Positions 1 to 9,649 of a stretch of DNA of 26,072 nucleotides are shown in pieces. The notes beneath the pieces were generated by a model. That model made no database searches and was not told the DNA's origin. It saw only the letters and a program-made list of their open reading frames with translations. The DNA comes from a virus, in the UHGV virus genome UHGV-0157394. One strand, written 5' to 3'. The position numbers were made by a program, and so were the translations under genes. The first letter of the stretch is position 1; every line of letters begins with the position of its first letter.

Positions 1-113
1 CTGGTATCACTTAAAGGTATTAAAAACAACTTTTTGTCTTTTTACCTTCCCGTTTCGCTCAAGTTAGTATAAAAAAGCTGAACGTGAAACATTAAAAACC
101 AGTAATATCAATG

Positions 114-122
114 TGTTACAAT
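114..122 (+). promoter_or_regulatory. Candidate extended -10 promoter (TGtTACAAT), no convincing -35
   Basis: TGTTACAAT motif at 114-122 in AT-rich non-coding DNA; a strong terminator lies about 100 nt downstream on the same strand. Confidence 0.3.
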
Positions 123-224
123 ATCTTTAGTCTCAAAAATAGACTACATGATGCTACAAAACACAACATATCCAGTCACTATGAATCAACTACTTAGATA
201 GTATTAGTGACCTGAGACAGAGCA

Positions 225-264
225 TTAGCGCAAGGTGATTTTTGTCTTCTTGCGCTAATTTTTT
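225..264 (+). terminator. Intrinsic terminator: 10-bp perfect stem (TTAGCGCAAG / CTTGCGCTAA) followed by TTTTTT
   Basis: Perfect inverted repeat 225-234 and 249-258 followed by T6 at 259-264; the reverse strand lacks a U-tract, so it is plus-strand specific. Confidence 0.6.
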
Positions 265-403
265 GTTATCAAACATGTCGCACTCCAGAGAAGCACAAAG
301 CCTTGCAATCCAGTGCAAAGATTTGTGTGCCTCAGTTTTGTCTAAGTGTTCTACTGAAAACATAGTAAAATCGGCAACGGCTGGAAATCATTCAATACTC
401 GCA

Positions 404-4729: not shown

Positions 4730-5808
4730 CAGAACGGGTCCTCCTGTACTCTGGCTTTTTTCTTTTTCCGCGCGCCGGGGGCTTCGGGTTCAGGCAGATA
4801 AGCATCAGGCGGGCCGACACGGATTTCCGTCAGGGTGCCGTTCTGGTCCTGAGTAAACGTGACTTCCGAAACAAGCAGTTCGGTATTGTCGAAACCACAG
4901 ACCGGATCAAAGACAATCACCCGCTGGTTGGGCTGCCACAGCGTACCGTTACCCTGTCGCCAGCCCTGCACCACATAGGTGGTTTCATCCGTCCGCGCCG
5001 CCCGTTGCCGGGCTTCAAAGTCAGCACGGGCAATACAGCCAGCCCCCGTAGCCTGCCCTGTCTGCCTGATATACATCGGACGGTAACGGGCAATAAATGC
5101 GTCCTCTGTGCGGGCCCGCAGCGCGGTGGTGGTGGCCTCACCGAAATCATCGTCGTTTCCGGCACGCTGCCCCGCCACCTGGTAAACAGAAAACCGCTCC
5201 CGGATACTCTTCTCCGTATCGCAGGAAAGGATGTTTTCCCCGAGTACCAGCGCAGTATGTGCCCGCGTTGAGCCAATACCGCCAATCACCAGCCTGCCGT
5301 GCGGGTCGTCGTAAGCCAGTGCCTGCTGCTGACCGAGTATTTTGTTGATTACCTCAATCACCGTTTCACCGTGATCAGGCTGGACATCAGGAATAACACC
5401 CGACGGCGCACCGTTGTTCACCACCTCAATGCCGAAAGGCGCAGCAAGCACCTGCGCAATCTGTACCAGCGATCGTCCGTTAAACTGTGTCGGTTCGGCT
5501 GCACAGTCAATCAGGTCAGCGGTCAGACTGCGTCCGGCAATACCGGTGCTGACCGAACGGGCATCGTAACGAACGGGCGTCGCCTCCACCCAGCCGGTGA
5601 TCACCAGCTCATCACCAATCAGCACCTCCACTTTTGAACCGTTTTTAATGCGCGGCTGAAGCGTGGTAATACCCTCATCTCCCGGCCACTGGCGGGTGAT
5701 CTCCACACTGAAATCCCGCGCCAGCCGTTCAATACCGGCACCGATGCGCACCGATGTCCAGCCATTCCACTCCCGGCCATTTACCCGTAGCGTGACATTG
5801 TCGTTCAT
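4729..5808 (-). CDS. Mu gpP-like tail/baseplate hub protein (gp44 family)
   Basis: 359-aa ORF downstream of the DNA-circulation protein, as in Mu. Confidence 0.85.
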   Translation of the reverse strand: MNDNVTLRVNGREWNGWTSVRIGAGIERLARDFSVEITRQWPGDEGITTLQPRIKNGSKVEVLIGDELVITGWVEATPVRYDARSVSTGIAGRSLTADLIDCAAEPTQFNGRSLVQIAQVLAAPFGIEVVNNGAPSGVIPDVQPDHGETVIEVINKILGQQQALAYDDPHGRLVIGGIGSTRAHTALVLGENILSCDTEKSIRERFSVYQVAGQRAGNDDDFGEATTTALRARTEDAFIARYRPMYIRQTGQATGAGCIARADFEARQRAARTDETTYVVQGWRQGNGTLWQPNQRVIVFDPVCGFDNTELLVSEVTFTQDQNGTLTEIRVGPPDAYLPEPEAPGARKKKKARVQEDPF

Positions 5809-7133
5809 TGCACTGGCACCTTCAGAGGGATCACCGGCACAAAGCCGGGATGCGTAATGGCATTACGCCGGATAATGTCCGCGTCACGCGCCGCGTTATC
5901 AAACCAGGTCGCCGCCAGCACCAGCGCGGGTAAAACCTCATCCGGTGTGCGCTGAATGATCCGTGCAGACTGTTCAAGGCGCGTGTTGATATCCGCATTC
6001 AGATCTGCTTTCACCCGGCGCAGCGCCAGAAACAGCGCATCACTGGTTGTACGGGACAACTCCTTATCAATTGCCGTATTCAGTGTGTCGCGAATGTCAG
6101 TCAGTTCTTCCCACGTCGGCAGGTCAACCGTGTTTTTCACCGCCGGTGCATTGTTCAGTGCCGGATGCGTGACGGAAGGCCAGCCAGTGCTCTGCGCAGG
6201 TGTTGTTGCCTGCCCCACTGCGGAATTCTGCATCACCGCGGAAGTTGTTGGCGCAGGCAATCGGGTGACGGCATACGCCGCTTCGCTGATTGCGGTCGTA
6301 CGAAGGGTGCTGGCAACCACGTTACGCTGCTGCGTCGCCGTGGCGGTGGTTTTACTGTCCGTTTTCCAGACGCCGCGCGGTTGCAGATCGCTGCCGAGGC
6401 TGACACCGGAAAGCGTTTTGATCATGGTGACCAGGTCGCTGGCGTTACCATAAAGGCGTTTCCCGGTACGCCACATTTTCTGCACCTGCTCAACGAAATT
6501 TTTGCCTGACGATGGCGGCGGCAGAAGTACCGAGATATCCCCCTGCAACAGCCTGGCGGCATCCGATACGGCAGAATCCACCACTTTCATCGCATCAGAA
6601 ACATACCCCAGCATTATGCTGGCATTACCGATAACGTCGTTCTGCACGAAATCCGCCACACCATCGATACTGAAACCGCTGAAGCTGTCACTGATGCAGT
6701 CATCCAGTGCAGAACAGGATGACATCAGCGTCTGCGCCGTCGCCGCACCTGATGTGGGGTAAGAGAGTTCTCCTGCTTCGACAAACTTCAGGTCAAAGCG
6801 GACAATACGCCCTTCATTTTTCGATGTGCTGACCCGAACTTCCCCGTCAACACAGACTTTCAGCTCACCATATGTCGGGTGGACCAGCGTGCCGGGACCG
6901 GGTTTATTCAGCGCGTCAATCAGGCGATCGCGCTGGTCAAAGCAGTCATCTCCCACCACATAAGCTGTGATGGACGGGCGGAAAGTGACTTTTCCCAGAT
7001 CTTCGGTATAGGGCTTGTCGCGGTTCGGGTATTCATGTGTTTCCACACGGCGACCGGTTCCCGCACTTTCTTCTTCAACCTTAAACGGCACACCTCGAAA
7101 TGACGCATCCTGAAGCCTGTCTTTCCACGTCAT
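5805..7133 (-). CDS. Phage DNA circulation protein (Mu gpN/gp43-like)
   Basis: About 442 aa; likely true start is the ATG at 7133 preceded by GGAG (the track begins at an upstream GTG at 7139); follows tape measure as in Mu. Confidence 0.85.
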   Translation of the reverse strand: MTWKDRLQDASFRGVPFKVEEESAGTGRRVETHEYPNRDKPYTEDLGKVTFRPSITAYVVGDDCFDQRDRLIDALNKPGPGTLVHPTYGELKVCVDGEVRVSTSKNEGRIVRFDLKFVEAGELSYPTSGAATAQTLMSSCSALDDCISDSFSGFSIDGVADFVQNDVIGNASIMLGYVSDAMKVVDSAVSDAARLLQGDISVLLPPPSSGKNFVEQVQKMWRTGKRLYGNASDLVTMIKTLSGVSLGSDLQPRGVWKTDSKTTATATQQRNVVASTLRTTAISEAAYAVTRLPAPTTSAVMQNSAVGQATTPAQSTGWPSVTHPALNNAPAVKNTVDLPTWEELTDIRDTLNTAIDKELSRTTSDALFLALRRVKADLNADINTRLEQSARIIQRTPDEVLPALVLAATWFDNAARDADIIRRNAITHPGFVPVIPLKVPVQ

Positions 7134-7143
7134 ATACACTCCG

Positions 7144-7174
7144 AAAATAAAAAAGCCACCTATTAGAAGGTGGC
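7144..7174 (-). terminator. Intrinsic terminator closing the low-GC moron cassette
   Basis: On the minus strand GCCACC-ttctaata-GGTGGC followed by TTTTTTATTTT. Confidence 0.7.
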
Positions 7175-7194
7175 CTTGTAATGAATTTTATTAA

Positions 7195-7725
7195 TTAGCG
7201 AGTCAGAAACAACGAATCTTTATACTTTTGCTGTTGTTCATTTAAATACTTAGCTGTTTCATCGCTGGCAAATGGAAATATTACCGTATTTTTAGGCATG
7301 GTAATTTCTTTTTTGTCCAGCGTCAGAGTAAACATAGGAACATACTGAGCAGAGTAACGCACCGCAGAAACGAGCTCTAGTTTAGACTCTTCAATAACAC
7401 TTAAATTATCCAGGCTAACTTTCTCTTCATCTTTTTTCTTTGACGCATTTAAAGTTTTTATTACTTTATTTAATTTCTCCTGAAAATCCTCCTTAAAGTT
7501 TTCAGGATTGCCGTCGACAACAAGAATCTGTTCACCCTGATTATCTGGAAAAATAATCTTTGCACTTATCAATTTATTTTCTTTATAAACATCACCAAGT
7601 TTTATGGCTCCTCCAGATAACTGAATAATATGTTCATCTTTAAAGGAGATGTTGCCAGAGATTATGAGAGATGAAAAAATAGCCGCTGCTCCAAGAATTA
7701 CACTTGCTGTGATATAGCCTTTCAT
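7195..7725 (-). CDS. Moron gene: exported or membrane-anchored protein of unknown function (176 aa, N-terminal signal peptide)
   Basis: ORF in a roughly 670-bp AT-rich island, far lower in GC than the flanking tail genes; N-terminus MKGYITASVILGAAAIFSSLIISG is signal-peptide-like with no lipobox; Lys/Glu-rich mature part; own promoter and terminator. Confidence 0.75.
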   Translation of the reverse strand: MKGYITASVILGAAAIFSSLIISGNISFKDEHIIQLSGGAIKLGDVYKENKLISAKIIFPDNQGEQILVVDGNPENFKEDFQEKLNKVIKTLNASKKKDEEKVSLDNLSVIEESKLELVSAVRYSAQYVPMFTLTLDKKEITMPKNTVIFPFASDETAKYLNEQQQKYKDSLFLTR

Positions 7726-7760
7726 TTTTCGCCTATTAACATTTTTCTAAATGTGCATTA

Positions 7761-7788
7761 ATTCTATCACTCTATTTATGACTTACAA
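7761..7788 (-). promoter_or_regulatory. Candidate sigma70 promoter of the moron gene (TTGTAA, 16 bp spacer, TGaTAGAAT extended -10)
   Basis: Motifs read on the minus strand about 35 nt upstream of the ATG at 7725. Confidence 0.4.
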
Positions 7789-7816
7789 CCAGCAATACAT
7801 GTGAGGGGAATCCTGG

Positions 7817-9649
7817 CTACCAAAATCGGGTATAGCCAACATCGTGATTTATATCAATGCCACTGGAGCGTGTTTCCGTAACCCGCATACCTGGTGGCAT
7901 ATTTATAAATGATACCTTGATCTCACCATCAACTTTTGGCGCGGTAGCTTTATTAATCATGAAGGGATTCGAGCCTGTGGCATCGGAGGCGTTGTTTGCC
8001 TGAGCCGGATCCACCGCCGGATAAGGAGTGTATCCCCGTGCCGGTATTCCCGTCCCATAAGCATCATAAGCACCCGCGCCCCACTGCGCAGAGTTAATGG
8101 CATCGACCGTGTCACCGGAACTGTCGGTAAACCACTCAATAATTGGCTTCAGCTTGTCCCACATATCCTGAAACCACTTAACAACCGGTCCCCAGTTATT
8201 GATTACCATCCCCAGCGGCGACCAGGCAAAAACCTTCTTCAGAAGTTCCCAGCCAGCCTCAAAATAAGGACCAATGGTTTCCCAGAGCTTCTTGAAATAA
8301 GGTCCGACAACATCCCAATTAGTGATAATTAATCCCGCAGCCAGGGCTATCGCCGTCGCAATCATTCCAATCGGCGTCATCGACATGATCCTGCTGACAA
8401 TACTGATGGCACCGCCAACGCCCATCAATCCCAGTTTCAGAATCGCAAGACCGGCAGCAAGCCCGACGACGCCGCGAATAACCCGGGGATTTTCATCCGC
8501 AAACTTCGTGAATTTCTCCCCCAACTCCCCCAGCCATTGCGTGATATTTTTGGCGTCACCAGAAAATGCGCCGCCAATAGCCGCAAGGCCGTTAGTTGCG
8601 GTCCCCGTCATTGCCTCCCACAGGTTGGACAGCGTACCAAGCTGGGCCTGAACACGTTTATTCAGGCTGGCCTGTTTATTCATCTTCTGCTGGATCTGAT
8701 CGTAACCATCCTTTCCTTTATCGATTAGTGCATTGACCACCTGAAGGGTTTCGGCATCATCACCAAATATTGCCTTAAGTACACCTGTTCGCTTAACGTC
8801 GGTCAGTTTTCGCAGCTTTGCCAGTTGCCTGAACATGTTATCAAGACCGCCAAAACTTCCTTTGCCGTCAGTAAAATCGAGCTGTACCCCGAGTCTCTGG
8901 CGGGCCATGACTTTATTGACGTCCCTGATTTTCTTAACGCTTAATCCGGACTGGATAACTTTTCGCAGGGCATTACCTGCCGACTCCCCGTTCATCCCCA
9001 TCTGATCCATCATGACGCTGATGGGGGCAAGGCTCTGTGCAGCCTGAAGACCGTCCTTGTTCACCATCTTCAGAACAGAACTGGTTTTAGTGAAGAAGGA
9101 CAACATGTTGGTATCGTCAACGCCCAGATAAAACGCCTTCTGGATAGTGTCGAACAGCCCCATCATGTCTTCTGACGCCGTTCCGGTAGCATCCTGCATC
9201 TTTGCAGCAAACTCAGCAGCCGCTTCCGGTGTTTTTTTCAGTTGTACCGCAAGATAAGCTGTCGCTTTACCCACACCACCCAGAATGTTTTCTGCCGGGA
9301 TCCCCTGACGCACCAGCATCTGCATCATGTTCTGGAAATCAGCCGTTGTACCGGGTAGCTGGTTACCCAGGCCAATAGCCAGTTTATTGATGTCCTGAAA
9401 GCTCTTTCCAACCTCGCCGTTCGCATCCATCATGGCGACTTTCAGCCCGGTGGCGGCGTTTTCCTGATCGGCATAAGATTTCAGGGAAAGCGTCAGACCC
9501 GCTGCCAGTCCGCCACCAAGCGCCAGCCCACCCTGTGACGCTTCTTCCGCCTGGCGTTTAAATCCCCGGATTTTCTTTTGCATTTTCGACAGCGCGGGAG
9601 AAAGCCTGTCGACACCGGTGATCAACGCCTTAAGCTCAAATTCCGCCAT
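7817..9649 (-). CDS. Tail tape measure protein
   Basis: 610-aa ORF after the chaperone pair; Ala/Gly-rich coiled regions, hydrophobic central segment, Trp-rich C-terminal region. Confidence 0.9.
   Translation of the reverse strand: MAEFELKALITGVDRLSPALSKMQKKIRGFKRQAEEASQGGLALGGGLAAGLTLSLKSYADQENAATGLKVAMMDANGEVGKSFQDINKLAIGLGNQLPGTTADFQNMMQMLVRQGIPAENILGGVGKATAYLAVQLKKTPEAAAEFAAKMQDATGTASEDMMGLFDTIQKAFYLGVDDTNMLSFFTKTSSVLKMVNKDGLQAAQSLAPISVMMDQMGMNGESAGNALRKVIQSGLSVKKIRDVNKVMARQRLGVQLDFTDGKGSFGGLDNMFRQLAKLRKLTDVKRTGVLKAIFGDDAETLQVVNALIDKGKDGYDQIQQKMNKQASLNKRVQAQLGTLSNLWEAMTGTATNGLAAIGGAFSGDAKNITQWLGELGEKFTKFADENPRVIRGVVGLAAGLAILKLGLMGVGGAISIVSRIMSMTPIGMIATAIALAAGLIITNWDVVGPYFKKLWETIGPYFEAGWELLKKVFAWSPLGMVINNWGPVVKWFQDMWDKLKPIIEWFTDSSGDTVDAINSAQWGAGAYDAYGTGIPARGYTPYPAVDPAQANNASDATGSNPFMINKATAPKVDGEIKVSFINMPPGMRVTETRSSGIDINHDVGYTRFW

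What the first reader, a model, noticed from the sequence alone, without database searches (positions are those of the whole stretch)
7144..7790. Low-GC moron cassette encoding a 176-aa exported protein inside the tail operon
A roughly 670-bp island with much lower GC than the surrounding tail genes sits exactly between the tape measure stop (7817) and the DNA-circulation gene start (7133). It has the full moron anatomy: candidate sigma70 promoter (TTGTAA, 16 bp, TGaTAGAAT), one gene, and a strong intrinsic terminator. The product has a signal-peptide-like N-terminus (no lipobox) and a Lys/Glu-rich mature part, and resembles no virion protein I recognise. Such cargo is typically a lysogenic-conversion function, for example a periplasmic superinfection-exclusion or anti-phage factor, or a host-interaction factor. 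It is the strongest candidate in the window for an undescribed function.
Basis: partly seen in the sequence, partly recalled or inferred. Interest (0 to 1): 0.75.

Follow-up and report, generated by a model that had tools for sequence, protein, structure and literature searches.

The report
Optional envelope-protein cassette in prophage tail operon
A low-GC, single-gene accessory cassette sits in a swappable slot of an E. coli SfV-like prophage tail operon and encodes an uncharacterised membrane-tethered periplasmic protein; the best guess, untested, is that it blocks entry of other phages.

Summary
A 176-aa ORF (7195-7725, minus strand; GC 0.34) lies between the tape-measure stop (7817) and the DNA-circulation start (7133), whose genes have GC 0.52-0.56. 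A sigma70-like site (TTGTAA-16-TGaTAGAAT) precedes it and a strong hairpin plus T-run follows it.

It is not a virion part. Phage SfV has 98-99% identical flanking proteins and only a 45-bp spacer at this junction. In E. coli the junction is a cargo hotspot: empty, this gene, or at least three unrelated low-GC cassettes, one on the opposite strand.

The N-terminus looks more like an uncleaved anchor than a cleaved signal peptide. The gene is also an old resident that has co-diverged with the tail backbone, not a recent arrival.

Function is unproven. Envelope-level superinfection exclusion is the best-supported guess (about 0.4). This is an ordinary kind of element (a moron) with uncharacterised cargo.

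The parts
7155..7816 (-). The variable cassette itself. It runs from just after the tape-measure stop codon to the start of the shared T-run.
   Evidence: Alignment with the SfV and SKA5 junctions shows that homology ends at the TMP stop and resumes at TTTTTTAT..CGGAG..ATG. GC is 0.31-0.34 against 0.52-0.56 in the flanks.
7761..7788 (-). Candidate sigma70 promoter: -35 TTGTAA (7788-7783), 16-nt spacer, extended -10 TG (7769-7768), -10 TAGAAT (7766-7761).
   Evidence: It is a consensus match only, not above shuffle expectation. Comparable sites occur in some orthologous cassettes (L011, L007) and are weak or absent in others.
7732..7734 (-). Weak Shine-Dalgarno (AGG) 6 nt upstream of the ATG.
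   Evidence: Read directly from the sequence. Orthologues have GAG, AGG or AAGG at the same distance.
7195..7725 (-). CDS of the 176-aa protein (WP_000679479.1, hypothetical protein; phrog_5485).
   Evidence: The family has 77 cluster representatives, nearly all full-length at about 170-180 aa. The exact sequence is seen on at least 1000 contigs.
7657..7713 (-). Codons 5-23: hydrophobic N-terminal segment, predicted to be a membrane anchor (N-in, C-out) or the h-region of a signal peptide.
   Evidence: Kyte-Doolittle 19-residue mean is 2.11. AlphaFold predicts a helix at residues 2-23. Long family members carry 50-115 residues before this segment. The remote homologue has a lipobox instead.
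7198..7638 (-). Codons 30-176: extracytoplasmic alpha/beta domain (beta-hairpin 33-42, strands 46-58 and 65-72, helix 74-93, strands 114-126 and 132-143, helix 149-171).
7149..7177 (-). Intrinsic-terminator-like hairpin (stem 7177-7152, loop 7167-7162) plus T-run (7154-7149).
   Evidence: Free energy is -15.6 kcal/mol with z = -5.2. A hairpin plus T-run is present at this position in every variant of the junction, including the empty SfV one.
7817..9649 (-). Upstream flank: tail tape-measure protein gene (610 aa).
   Evidence: PF10145 at E 1e-26. It is 98% identical to SfV orf14.
5805..7133 (-). Downstream flank: Mu N-like DNA-circulation / baseplate-hub gene (442 aa from the ATG at 7133).
   Evidence: PF07157 at E 3e-34. 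It is 99% identical to SfV orf15.

Best explanation
SHOWN:
- The window is an SfV-like (Mu-type contractile tail, lambdoid late control) prophage of E. coli.
- The junction between the tape-measure gene and the DNA-circulation gene is a cargo slot. It can be empty or hold one of several unrelated low-GC cassettes.
- Here it holds a single gene for a 176-aa protein with an N-terminal hydrophobic helix and a roughly 145-residue alpha/beta domain of an undescribed family.
- The gene is dispensable for making virions.

INFERRED:
- The protein is inserted into the inner membrane with its N-terminus in the cytoplasm and its domain in the periplasm, held at the membrane surface. Remote homologues achieve the same tethering with a lipid anchor.
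- In the lysogen it is transcribed from its own weak promoter. The hairpin plus T-run stops that transcript before the baseplate genes. During lytic growth, Q-antiterminated late transcription reads through and also expresses it.

MOST LIKELY FUNCTION (about 0.4):
- Envelope-level superinfection exclusion. The tethered periplasmic domain would intercept a component of an incoming phage tail (tape-measure or tail-tip proteins crossing the periplasm), or an inner-membrane entry factor, and block genome entry.
- This would work as the unrelated HK97 gp15 moron does from its position next to a tape-measure gene.

The anatomical part of this statement (accessory cassette, exported envelope protein, not a structural gene) I hold at about 0.9.
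For: Presence or absence between near-identical tail modules:
- SfV has TMP 98% and circ 99% identical to the window but only a 45-bp spacer.
- SfII, SfI and 689R6 are likewise empty.
- 175 of 5426 complete E. coli genomes carry this cassette, out of about 1093 that have the flanks.

Hotspot:
- In an evenly spaced sample of 60 of 1102 records, 29 junctions are empty and 13 carry a roughly 620-bp insert (this gene or the SKA5-type gene).
- Three more carry an OB-fold membrane protein on the opposite strand, and one carries a PH-domain protein.
- All cassettes have GC 0.31-0.38. The SKA5-type cassette is in 84-85 genomes.

Envelope targeting:
- Residues 5-23 are hydrophobic, and AlphaFold predicts a helix at 2-23 followed by a confident globular domain.
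- Long family members have cytoplasmic extensions before the hydrophobic segment.
- A remote homologue in lytic Pseudomonas phage ventosus has a lipobox in place of the helix. Support: Foldseek E 7e-7 with TM 0.66 and hhalign probability 85.5% with E 6e-6 over 124 columns.
- That lipoprotein sits among early or middle genes and is conserved in four such phages.

Accessory contexts elsewhere:
- A copy stands alone beside icd (an e14-type attachment site) in Lelliottia. A remnant of the TMP 3' end is still upstream and no other phage genes remain, so the gene was retained after prophage decay.
- In Pseudomonas integrative elements it lies in the cargo region next to an Mrr-type nuclease that matches defence models.

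Other support:
- It diverges faster than the structural proteins (33% against 48-65% identity), as expected of a gene under conflict.
- The functional analogue has published support: HK97 gp15 is a moron next to a TMP gene, an inner-membrane protein, and blocks genome injection depending on the incoming tail (PMC3594210).
Against: - There is no functional data of any kind, and no homology to any known exclusion or defence protein. PADLOC gives no hit, HK97 gp15 is unrelated, and no PDB fold relative was found.
- The promoter is a weak consensus match not above chance and is not clearly conserved in the Lonsdalea, Cronobacter and Leclercia cassettes. Expression may therefore be mainly late.
- Homologues have kept this exact slot down to 33% identity, and their divergence tracks sheath, circ and hub proteins (r 0.86-0.90 over 15 pairs). 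That would also fit a non-essential role in the phage's own cycle.
- A native-GC chromosomal homologue among housekeeping genes in an Aeromonadaceae MAG suggests the family may have a cellular envelope function unrelated to phages.
- Whether the N-terminal segment is cleaved is unresolved. UniRef's automatic name for one homologue is 'Secreted protein'.
Confidence: 0.4

Rival explanations
1. Host-fitness or lysogenic-conversion envelope factor unrelated to phage exclusion, in the manner of lambda Bor/Iss or Lom, or of periplasmic stress proteins. The tethered periplasmic domain would alter envelope properties such as serum, bile, antimicrobial-peptide or stress resistance, or adhesion.
For: - It shares the envelope location and moron anatomy of Bor and Lom.
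- Solitary chromosomal copies are retained in Lelliottia, Kosakonia, Enterobacter and Aeromonadaceae, the last with native GC among housekeeping genes.
- The alternative cargo at the same slot includes another secreted protein and a membrane-anchored OB-fold protein.
- It is widespread in human, animal and environmental E. coli.
Against: - It has no similarity to any known virulence or stress factor.
- Homologues occur in strictly lytic Pseudomonas phages, where a host-fitness factor makes little sense and exclusion does.
- Its fast divergence is more typical of conflict genes.
Confidence: 0.25
2. Non-essential phage late function. The protein would be expressed with the tail operon and act in the producing cell, for example by preventing progeny from injecting into lysing cells, by modulating lysis, or by assisting tail-tip or tape-measure handling at the membrane. 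It would not act in the lysogen.
For: - It has the same orientation as the late operon and sits inside it.
- The slot position is conserved down to 33% identity, and divergence is correlated with sheath, circ and hub proteins.
- The promoter is weak or unclear in several orthologous cassettes.
- The late operon of a related, nearly identical prophage is under a Q antiterminator. Q-modified polymerase is known to read through terminators (established knowledge).
Against: - It is absent from functional phages with 98-99% identical flanks.
- The slot is also filled by unrelated proteins, including one on the opposite strand that late transcription cannot express.
- It survives as an orphan after prophage decay.
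- It occurs in non-phage integrative elements.
Confidence: 0.15
3. Periplasmic immunity or inhibitor protein against an exported toxin or enzyme, such as a colicin, a T6SS or CDI effector, or a phage or host muralytic enzyme. It would be carried as orphan immunity cargo.
For: - It is a small membrane-tethered periplasmic protein, which is the typical format of immunity proteins to periplasm-acting effectors (established knowledge).
- It is carried on mobile elements in several genera.
- It has a conserved polar and aromatic motif (Y47, E49, Y124, E127).
Against: - No cognate toxin gene lies next to it in any of the contexts examined.
- It shows no similarity to known immunity families.
Confidence: 0.07
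4. Conserved virion or tail-assembly component whose low GC is incidental.
For: Its location between two tail genes and the long-term conservation of that location.
Against: - It is absent from SfV, SfII, SfI and 689R6 and from about half of the sampled E. coli junctions.
- GC is 0.34 against 0.52-0.56 in the flanks.
- It matches no structural family by Pfam, PHROG or fold.
- It carries an export or anchor segment.
Confidence: 0.03

Closest known systems
HK97 gp15 moron (superinfection exclusion; Cumby et al. 2012, reviewed in PMC3594210)
   Same: - A single-gene, compositionally distinct cassette inside the tail operon, directly next to the tape-measure gene, with a downstream terminator.
- The product has an N-terminal membrane helix.
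- It is absent from close relatives.
- It has bacterial homologues outside prophages.
   Different: - There is no sequence relationship (hhalign probability 0.1%).
- gp15 is 62 aa with almost no extramembrane domain, whereas this protein has a roughly 145-residue folded domain.
- gp15 lies upstream of the TMP gene in a siphovirus. This gene lies downstream of the TMP gene in a Mu-type myovirus tail.
- The gp15 phenotype is demonstrated. None is known here.
Lipoprotein or periplasmic exclusion proteins of phages (T5 Llp, phi80/N15 Cor, T4 Imm and Sp, P22 SieA)
   Same: - These are phage-encoded, envelope-located, non-structural proteins.
- The family studied here includes lipobox-anchored members in lytic phages.
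   Different: - No homology was detected to any annotated phage protein.
- The comparison with Llp, Cor, Imm, Sp and SieA rests on my knowledge of those systems, not on a sequence test here.
- The window protein has no lipobox.
Lambda Bor/Iss and Lom (classical lambdoid morons)
   Same: Low-GC, independently transcribed envelope proteins carried in or next to the late region of lambdoid prophages.
   Different: - Bor is a lipoprotein and Lom an outer-membrane beta-barrel. This protein is neither.
- Their roles (serum resistance, adhesion) are host-directed.
Variable cargo hotspots of temperate phages and satellites (P2/P4 hotspots, Rousset et al. 2022, PMC9122126)
   Same: A fixed junction between conserved genes holds alternative, unrelated accessory cassettes in different strains.
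   Different: - The phage type and the junction differ (TMP|DNA-circulation of SfV-like phages).
- The cassettes here are single small genes with no match to known defence systems.
- I found no paper that describes this slot.
phrog_5485 (PHROGs v4, unknown function)
   Same: Full-length match, residues 1-176 of 176, E 4e-108. A Pseudomonas family member also matches at E 4e-14.
   Different: The PHROG carries no functional annotation, so membership gives the family a label but explains nothing.

Membership tests
Moron (Juhala/Hendrix sense) | Extra DNA present at a precise point in one phage and absent from close relatives | tested here: met
   SfV has 98-99% identical flanking proteins and a 45-bp spacer instead. 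The boundaries lie at the TMP stop codon and at the T-run. About half of the sampled E. coli junctions are empty.
Moron (Juhala/Hendrix sense) | Nucleotide composition different from the surrounding genes | tested here: met
   GC is 0.34 against 0.52-0.56. The same holds in all orthologous cassettes, at 0.35-0.42.
Moron (Juhala/Hendrix sense) | Own promoter | tested here: inconclusive
   TTGTAA-16-TGaTAGAAT is present, but such matches are not above shuffle expectation. The site is only partly conserved in orthologues.
Moron (Juhala/Hendrix sense) | Own terminator | tested here: met
   The hairpin has -15.6 kcal/mol and z = -5.2 and is followed by a T-run. Caveat: every state of the junction, including the empty one, has a hairpin plus T-run, and the T-run lies in the shared flank.
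Moron (Juhala/Hendrix sense) | Expressed from the repressed prophage | not testable with these tools
   This needs RNA-seq, 5'-RACE or a reporter fusion in a lysogen.
HK97 gp15 / YebO family | Sequence homology to gp15/YebO | tested here: not met
   hhalign of gp15 against the 57-member family alignment gives probability 0.12%.
HK97 gp15-like exclusion (working like, not membership) | Blocks genome entry of superinfecting phage without blocking adsorption | not testable with these tools
   This needs plating, adsorption and DNA-entry assays.
Virion / tail structural protein | Present in all related tail modules, with similar composition and homology to structural families | tested here: not met
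   It is absent from SfV, SfII, SfI and 689R6. GC is low. No structural match was found in Pfam, PHROGs, the PDB or BFVD.
Bacterial lipoprotein (Llp/Cor/Bor type) | Lipobox with an invariant Cys after the signal peptide | tested here: not met
   There is no Cys in the protein. The remote homologue in phage ventosus does have one, in LLTGC.
Known anti-phage defence systems (PADLOC-DB v2) | Match to a defence-protein model | tested here: not met
   0 families at E up to 10.
Cleaved Sec signal peptide (secreted protein) versus uncleaved signal anchor | Short h-region and a small/neutral -3/-1 cleavage motif (signal peptide), or a long hydrophobic helix that tolerates N-terminal extensions (anchor) | tested here: inconclusive
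   For an anchor: the hydrophobic stretch is 18-19 residues (Kyte-Doolittle mean 2.11), AlphaFold predicts a helix at 2-23, and long family members carry N-terminal extensions. For a signal peptide: I-I-S|G would be an acceptable cleavage site, and UniRef names one homologue 'Secreted protein'. No dedicated predictor was available.
phrog_5485 | Full-length HMM match | tested here: met
   E 3.8e-108 over residues 1-176 of 176.

The most novel reading that the evidence does not exclude
The protein would found a new family of membrane-tethered periplasmic anti-entry (superinfection-exclusion) proteins with a previously unseen fold. The family would be shared by temperate enterobacterial prophages (helix-anchored), lytic Pseudomonas phages (lipid-anchored) and small integrative elements. 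The TMP|DNA-circulation junction of SfV-like phages would be an undescribed hotspot where envelope-acting defence cargo is exchanged. The persistently low GC over long co-divergence would reflect a regulatory constraint, such as H-NS control, rather than recent transfer.
Probability: 0.3. Interest if true: 0.65.

Novelty: new member of a known kind. Interest (0 to 1): 0.45.

Why it matters
Morons and prophage cargo hotspots are a main source of new anti-phage and host-conversion functions. This case offers four things.

- **A defined, experimentally tractable slot.** SfV-like prophages are common: about 20% of complete E. coli genomes carry the flanks. The slot has at least five natural states (empty plus four different cargos), which amounts to a ready-made allelic series.
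- **An undescribed protein family.** It is widespread, has no Pfam entry, and has a confident predicted structure with no solved relative.
- **A link between temperate and lytic phages.** The two groups use different membrane anchors for the same domain, which argues that position at the membrane-periplasm interface is what matters.
- **A caution about low GC.** Here low GC does not equal recent acquisition.

If the exclusion function were confirmed, it would add a new mechanistic class to the few known blockers of genome entry. If not, this remains a routine hypothetical prophage gene.

Tried and rejected
- **Direct sequence searches of the protein gave nothing.** Pfam, NCBIfam, PADLOC and PDB all returned no hit. 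Scanning all 57 family members against Pfam gave only scattered chance hits.
- **tblastn against 50,697 deposited phage genomes gave no match** with the window protein or with a Pseudomonas family member. The family is therefore essentially absent from isolated, deposited phages other than the ventosus group.
- **The afdb50 library was not available**.
- **The search for related loci failed** with the broad alignments A2, A3 and A4, which had no sufficiently conserved stretch. I replaced it with a degenerate DNA motif scan of genome contigs, of which 4 of 24 hits were real.
- **The 180-aa neighbour in the Pseudomonas island** was tested as a possible paralogue and is not one.
- **The SKA5 cassette protein** was tested for homology to the family and is unrelated.
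- **No transposon-like or att-like repeats** flank the cassette.
- **No Rfam family** reaches threshold in the region. The sub-threshold leader-type hits only reflect the terminator hairpin.
- **Literature searches** for the RefSeq accession, the PHROG number and tail-operon hotspots found nothing specific.
- **Co-evolution with the neighbouring tape-measure protein** was considered as evidence for a TMP-specific partner and rejected. Identity of the cassette protein is uncorrelated with TMP identity (r 0.08), because the TMP is mosaic.
Full report
**1. The observation**

On the minus strand, bases 7195-7725 hold a 176-codon ORF with an ATG start. It is the only ORF of 40 aa or more in the interval between the tape-measure stop and the DNA-circulation start.
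- The upstream gene (7817-9649) is a tape-measure protein (PF10145).
- The downstream gene (ATG at 7133) has the Mu N-type DNA_circ_N domain. It is followed by gpP/gp44-type hub genes.
- GC is 0.343 for the ORF and 0.34 and 0.31 for the two spacers, against 0.516 and 0.561 for the flanking genes.
The scan finds no more such sites here than in shuffled sequence, so it is only a candidate.
- The terminator is convincing. It is a 10-pair stem of -15.6 kcal/mol with z = -5.2, followed by T6-A-T4.
- The protein has no cysteine, so it has no lipobox. Residues 5-23 are strongly hydrophobic, and the rest is rich in Lys and Glu.

**2. What the surroundings are**

The window is an SfV-like prophage of E. 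coli, with a Mu-type contractile tail and a lambdoid late region. In RefSeq genomes that carry the same cassette region at 99.9% identity, the gene is WP_000679479.1, 'hypothetical protein'.

**3. It is optional cargo, not a tail part**

- Phage SfV has a tape-measure protein 98% identical and a DNA-circulation protein 99% identical to those of the window. Its two genes are separated by only 45 bp.
- SfII, SfI and vB_EcoM-689R6 are likewise empty.
- Alignment of the junctions shows that homology stops exactly at the tape-measure stop codon. It resumes at the T-run just before the RBS of the DNA-circulation gene.
- Among 5426 complete E. coli genomes, about 1093 have the flanks and 175 have this cassette.

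**4. The junction is a cargo hotspot**

An evenly spaced sample of 60 of the 1102 records that match the empty SfV junction gave the following states:
- 29 uninterrupted (empty) junctions.
- 13 with an insert of about 620 bp. This is either the present gene or a different 164-aa secreted protein first seen in phage SKA5. The SKA5-type cassette occurs in 84-85 genomes and is unrelated by hhalign.
- 3 with a 148-aa membrane-anchored 'OB-fold protein' encoded on the opposite strand.
- 1 with a 125-aa PH-domain protein.
- The rest are partial matches.

All cassettes have GC 0.31-0.38 between flanks of 0.52-0.56. The opposite-strand cassette cannot be expressed by late-operon transcription. That argues the slot carries independently expressed cargo.

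Every state of the junction, including the empty one, has a hairpin plus T-run immediately before the DNA-circulation RBS. The terminator is therefore a feature of the slot. Each cassette brings its own stem, while the T-run lies in the shared flank.

**5. The protein family**

- There is no match in Pfam, NCBIfam, PADLOC or PDB sequences.
- PHROGs gives a full-length match to phrog_5485, which has unknown function.
- A word-indexed search found only E. coli copies and homologues of about 55% identity in Leclercia and Lelliottia.
- A profile search of 1.8 billion cluster representatives found 77 representatives, nearly all full-length at 170-180 aa and reaching down to about 20% identity.
- The conserved core is the motif G-x-V-x-L-G-x-V-Y-x-E just after the hydrophobic segment, plus V-x-Y-x-S-E-x-x-P-x-F-x-L in the second beta-hairpin.

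**6. Predicted structure**

With the 57-sequence alignment, AlphaFold2 gives a confident model (pLDDT 92.1, pTM 0.77):
- a helix at residues 2-23;
- a short linker;
- a beta-hairpin at 33-42;
- then beta-beta-alpha-beta-beta-alpha (46-58, 65-72, 74-93, 114-126, 132-143, 149-171).

Foldseek against predicted viral structures gives one significant hit, a 144-aa 'lipoprotein' of the 97-kb lytic Pseudomonas phage ventosus (E 7e-7, TM 0.66).
- I located this gene at MG018930 51995-52429.
- It begins MKRLLFLGITALLLTGC, which is a lipobox. It continues TIIHTRSAVVNVGEVTAEG, which parallels HIIQLSGGAIKLGDVYKEN in the window protein.
- hhalign against the family gives 85.5% probability and E 6e-6 over 124 columns.
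- It is conserved in four related lytic phages.

**7. Topology**

Evidence for an uncleaved N-in/C-out anchor:
- The hydrophobic stretch is long, at 18-19 residues with a Kyte-Doolittle mean of 2.11.
- It is predicted as one helix.
- Three longer family members carry 50-115 residues before it.
- In the remote homologues the segment is replaced by a lipid anchor, so tethering to a membrane seems to be the conserved property.

Evidence for a cleaved signal peptide:
- I-I-S|G is a permissible signal-peptidase site.
- UniRef's automatic name for one homologue is 'Secreted protein'.

I could not run a dedicated predictor. Export is well supported, while anchor versus cleavage remains open.

**8. 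Contexts of homologues**

- Leclercia, Cronobacter and Lonsdalea homologues, at 33-55% identity, all sit in the same TMP|DNA-circulation slot of SfV-like prophages.
- Over six such prophages (15 pairs), identity of the cassette protein correlates with identity of the DNA-circulation protein (r 0.90), sheath (0.87) and hub (0.86). It does not correlate with the mosaic tape-measure protein (r 0.08). The cassette protein diverges faster than the structural proteins, for example 33% against 48-65%.
- The gene is therefore an old resident of the slot. It has co-diverged with the tail backbone and has repeatedly been lost or replaced. Its GC has stayed low throughout, at 0.35-0.42.
- In Lelliottia amnigena the gene stands alone about 370 bp downstream of icd, the e14-type attachment site. 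A remnant of the tape-measure 3' end lies upstream, its hairpin lies downstream, and no other phage genes remain. This orphan retained after prophage decay suggests benefit to the host.
- Other solitary low-GC copies occur in Kosakonia, Enterobacter and Citrobacter.
- An Aeromonadaceae MAG has a native-GC copy among glgC-like, pitA, ppx and ppk genes.
- Pseudomonas members, at about 23% identity, lie in small integrative elements that carry a serine or tyrosine recombinase and in one case a primase-like gene. They sit beside a 189-aa resolvase, and in one family of elements two genes away from an Mrr-type nuclease that matches candidate defence models.

**9. How it most likely works**

Shown:
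- It is an optional, compositionally distinct single-gene cassette in a swappable slot.
- Its product is exported or membrane-tethered.
- It is not structural.

Inferred:
- In the lysogen, transcription comes from its own weak promoter and stops at the hairpin plus T-run.
- During lytic growth, Q-antiterminated late transcription also expresses it. A Q gene is present in the nearly identical prophage.

Function:
- The best-supported guess is superinfection exclusion at the inner-membrane/periplasm interface, with the tethered domain interfering with genome entry.
- Five observations support this guess. The domain occurs in lytic phages. It is tethered at the membrane by two different devices. 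It diverges fast. It is retained as an orphan and carried in the cargo regions of other mobile elements. And there is a precedent in HK97 gp15, a moron next to a tape-measure gene whose inner-membrane product blocks injection depending on the incoming tail (PMC3594210).
- gp15 itself is unrelated.
- I put this function at about 0.4.
- The rivals are a host-directed envelope factor (0.25), a non-essential late phage function (0.15), a periplasmic immunity protein (0.07) and a structural role (0.03, contradicted).

**10. Novelty and verdict**

The kind of element is well known: a moron, or prophage accessory hotspot. I found no description of the following in the searched literature:
- the cargo family;
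- its predicted fold;
- the multi-state TMP|DNA-circulation slot of SfV-like phages;
- the link to lipoproteins of lytic phages.

The N-terminus is an anchor rather than a clear signal peptide. The terminator belongs to the slot. And low GC persists over a long residence rather than marking recent acquisition.

Interest is moderate at 0.45. This is a good candidate for a new exclusion protein, but at present it remains an uncharacterised prophage gene.

Noticed in passing
L017:1666-2178 (phage SKA5, OR670062 27665-28177); L127:526-1020: A different low-GC (0.31) cassette occupies the same TMP|DNA-circulation slot. It encodes a 164-170-aa protein with a classical cleavable signal peptide (MRIFVFFISALLSFNLAA|EE) and matches phrog_8976 (unknown function). 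It is present in 84-85 complete E. coli genomes and is unrelated to the protein studied here.
   Followed up: partly
L125:546-992 (+) and L124:499-876 (-): Two further cargo types occupy the same slot. One is a 148-aa N-terminally anchored 'OB-fold protein' (WP_096129238.1) encoded on the strand opposite to the tail operon. The other is a 125-aa cytoplasmic PH-domain protein (WP_001514801.1). Both have low GC (0.37-0.38) and no PADLOC match.
   Followed up: partly
L007:7633-8693 (Lelliottia amnigena): An orphan copy of the gene lies about 370 bp downstream of icd. A short remnant of the tape-measure 3' end lies upstream, its hairpin lies downstream, and no other prophage genes remain. This looks like a decayed prophage that kept only this gene.
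   Followed up: partly
L002:3050-3094 (SfV junction), window 7149-7177, and the junctions of L003, L008, L011 and L017: Every variant of the junction, including the empty SfV one, has a GC-rich hairpin followed by a T-run directly before the DNA-circulation RBS. The stems all differ, but the T-run and RBS are shared. This is an intra-operon terminator that late (Q-modified) transcription must read through.
   Followed up: partly
L003:10013-11808; L011:8012-9819; L005:9355-11201: Leclercia-type relatives carry two extra genes between the DNA-circulation gene and the gpP hub gene. They encode 503-520 aa and 94 aa proteins with no Pfam hit, and they are absent from the window and from L008. This may be a second variable slot.
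   Followed up: no
L129:6637-7330 (Lonsdalea quercina prophage): Here the slot holds the family member plus two more small genes before the DNA-circulation gene. One encodes 119 aa with a Cys-rich, zinc-ribbon-like C-terminus. The other encodes 83 aa with a C-terminal hydrophobic helix. The cargo can therefore be multi-gene.
   Followed up: no
L003 against L011: Two Leclercia-type prophages share 93-98% identical sheath, DNA-circulation and hub proteins and an 85% identical cassette protein, but their tape-measure proteins are only 39% identical. There is a sharp mosaic breakpoint at the TMP gene.
   Followed up: partly
L012:6634-8534; L016:6935-8531 (Pseudomonas integrative elements): Distant family members lie just downstream of a divergently transcribed 188-189-aa resolvase/invertase. 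In L012 an Mrr-type nuclease matching PADLOC PDC-S02 and mREase_IV lies next to that resolvase. Whether the invertase controls expression was not examined.
   Followed up: no
NZ_CP146678.1 37620-38820 and NZ_CP146675.1 4071094-4072294 (E. coli MS 69-1): The same cassette region occurs at 99.9% identity both on the chromosome and on a separate 64-kb record of the same strain. This may be an excised or episomal copy of the prophage, or an assembly duplicate.
   Followed up: no
NZ_CP101274.1 871320-873392 (E. coli EC21Z-014): In one genome the match to the 1.2-kb query around the cassette is interrupted by an IS5-family transposase.
   Followed up: no
window 1-400: This is the second low-GC block of the window (0.355), at its left end near the tail-fibre and tail-fibre-assembly genes. 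It was not examined.
   Followed up: no
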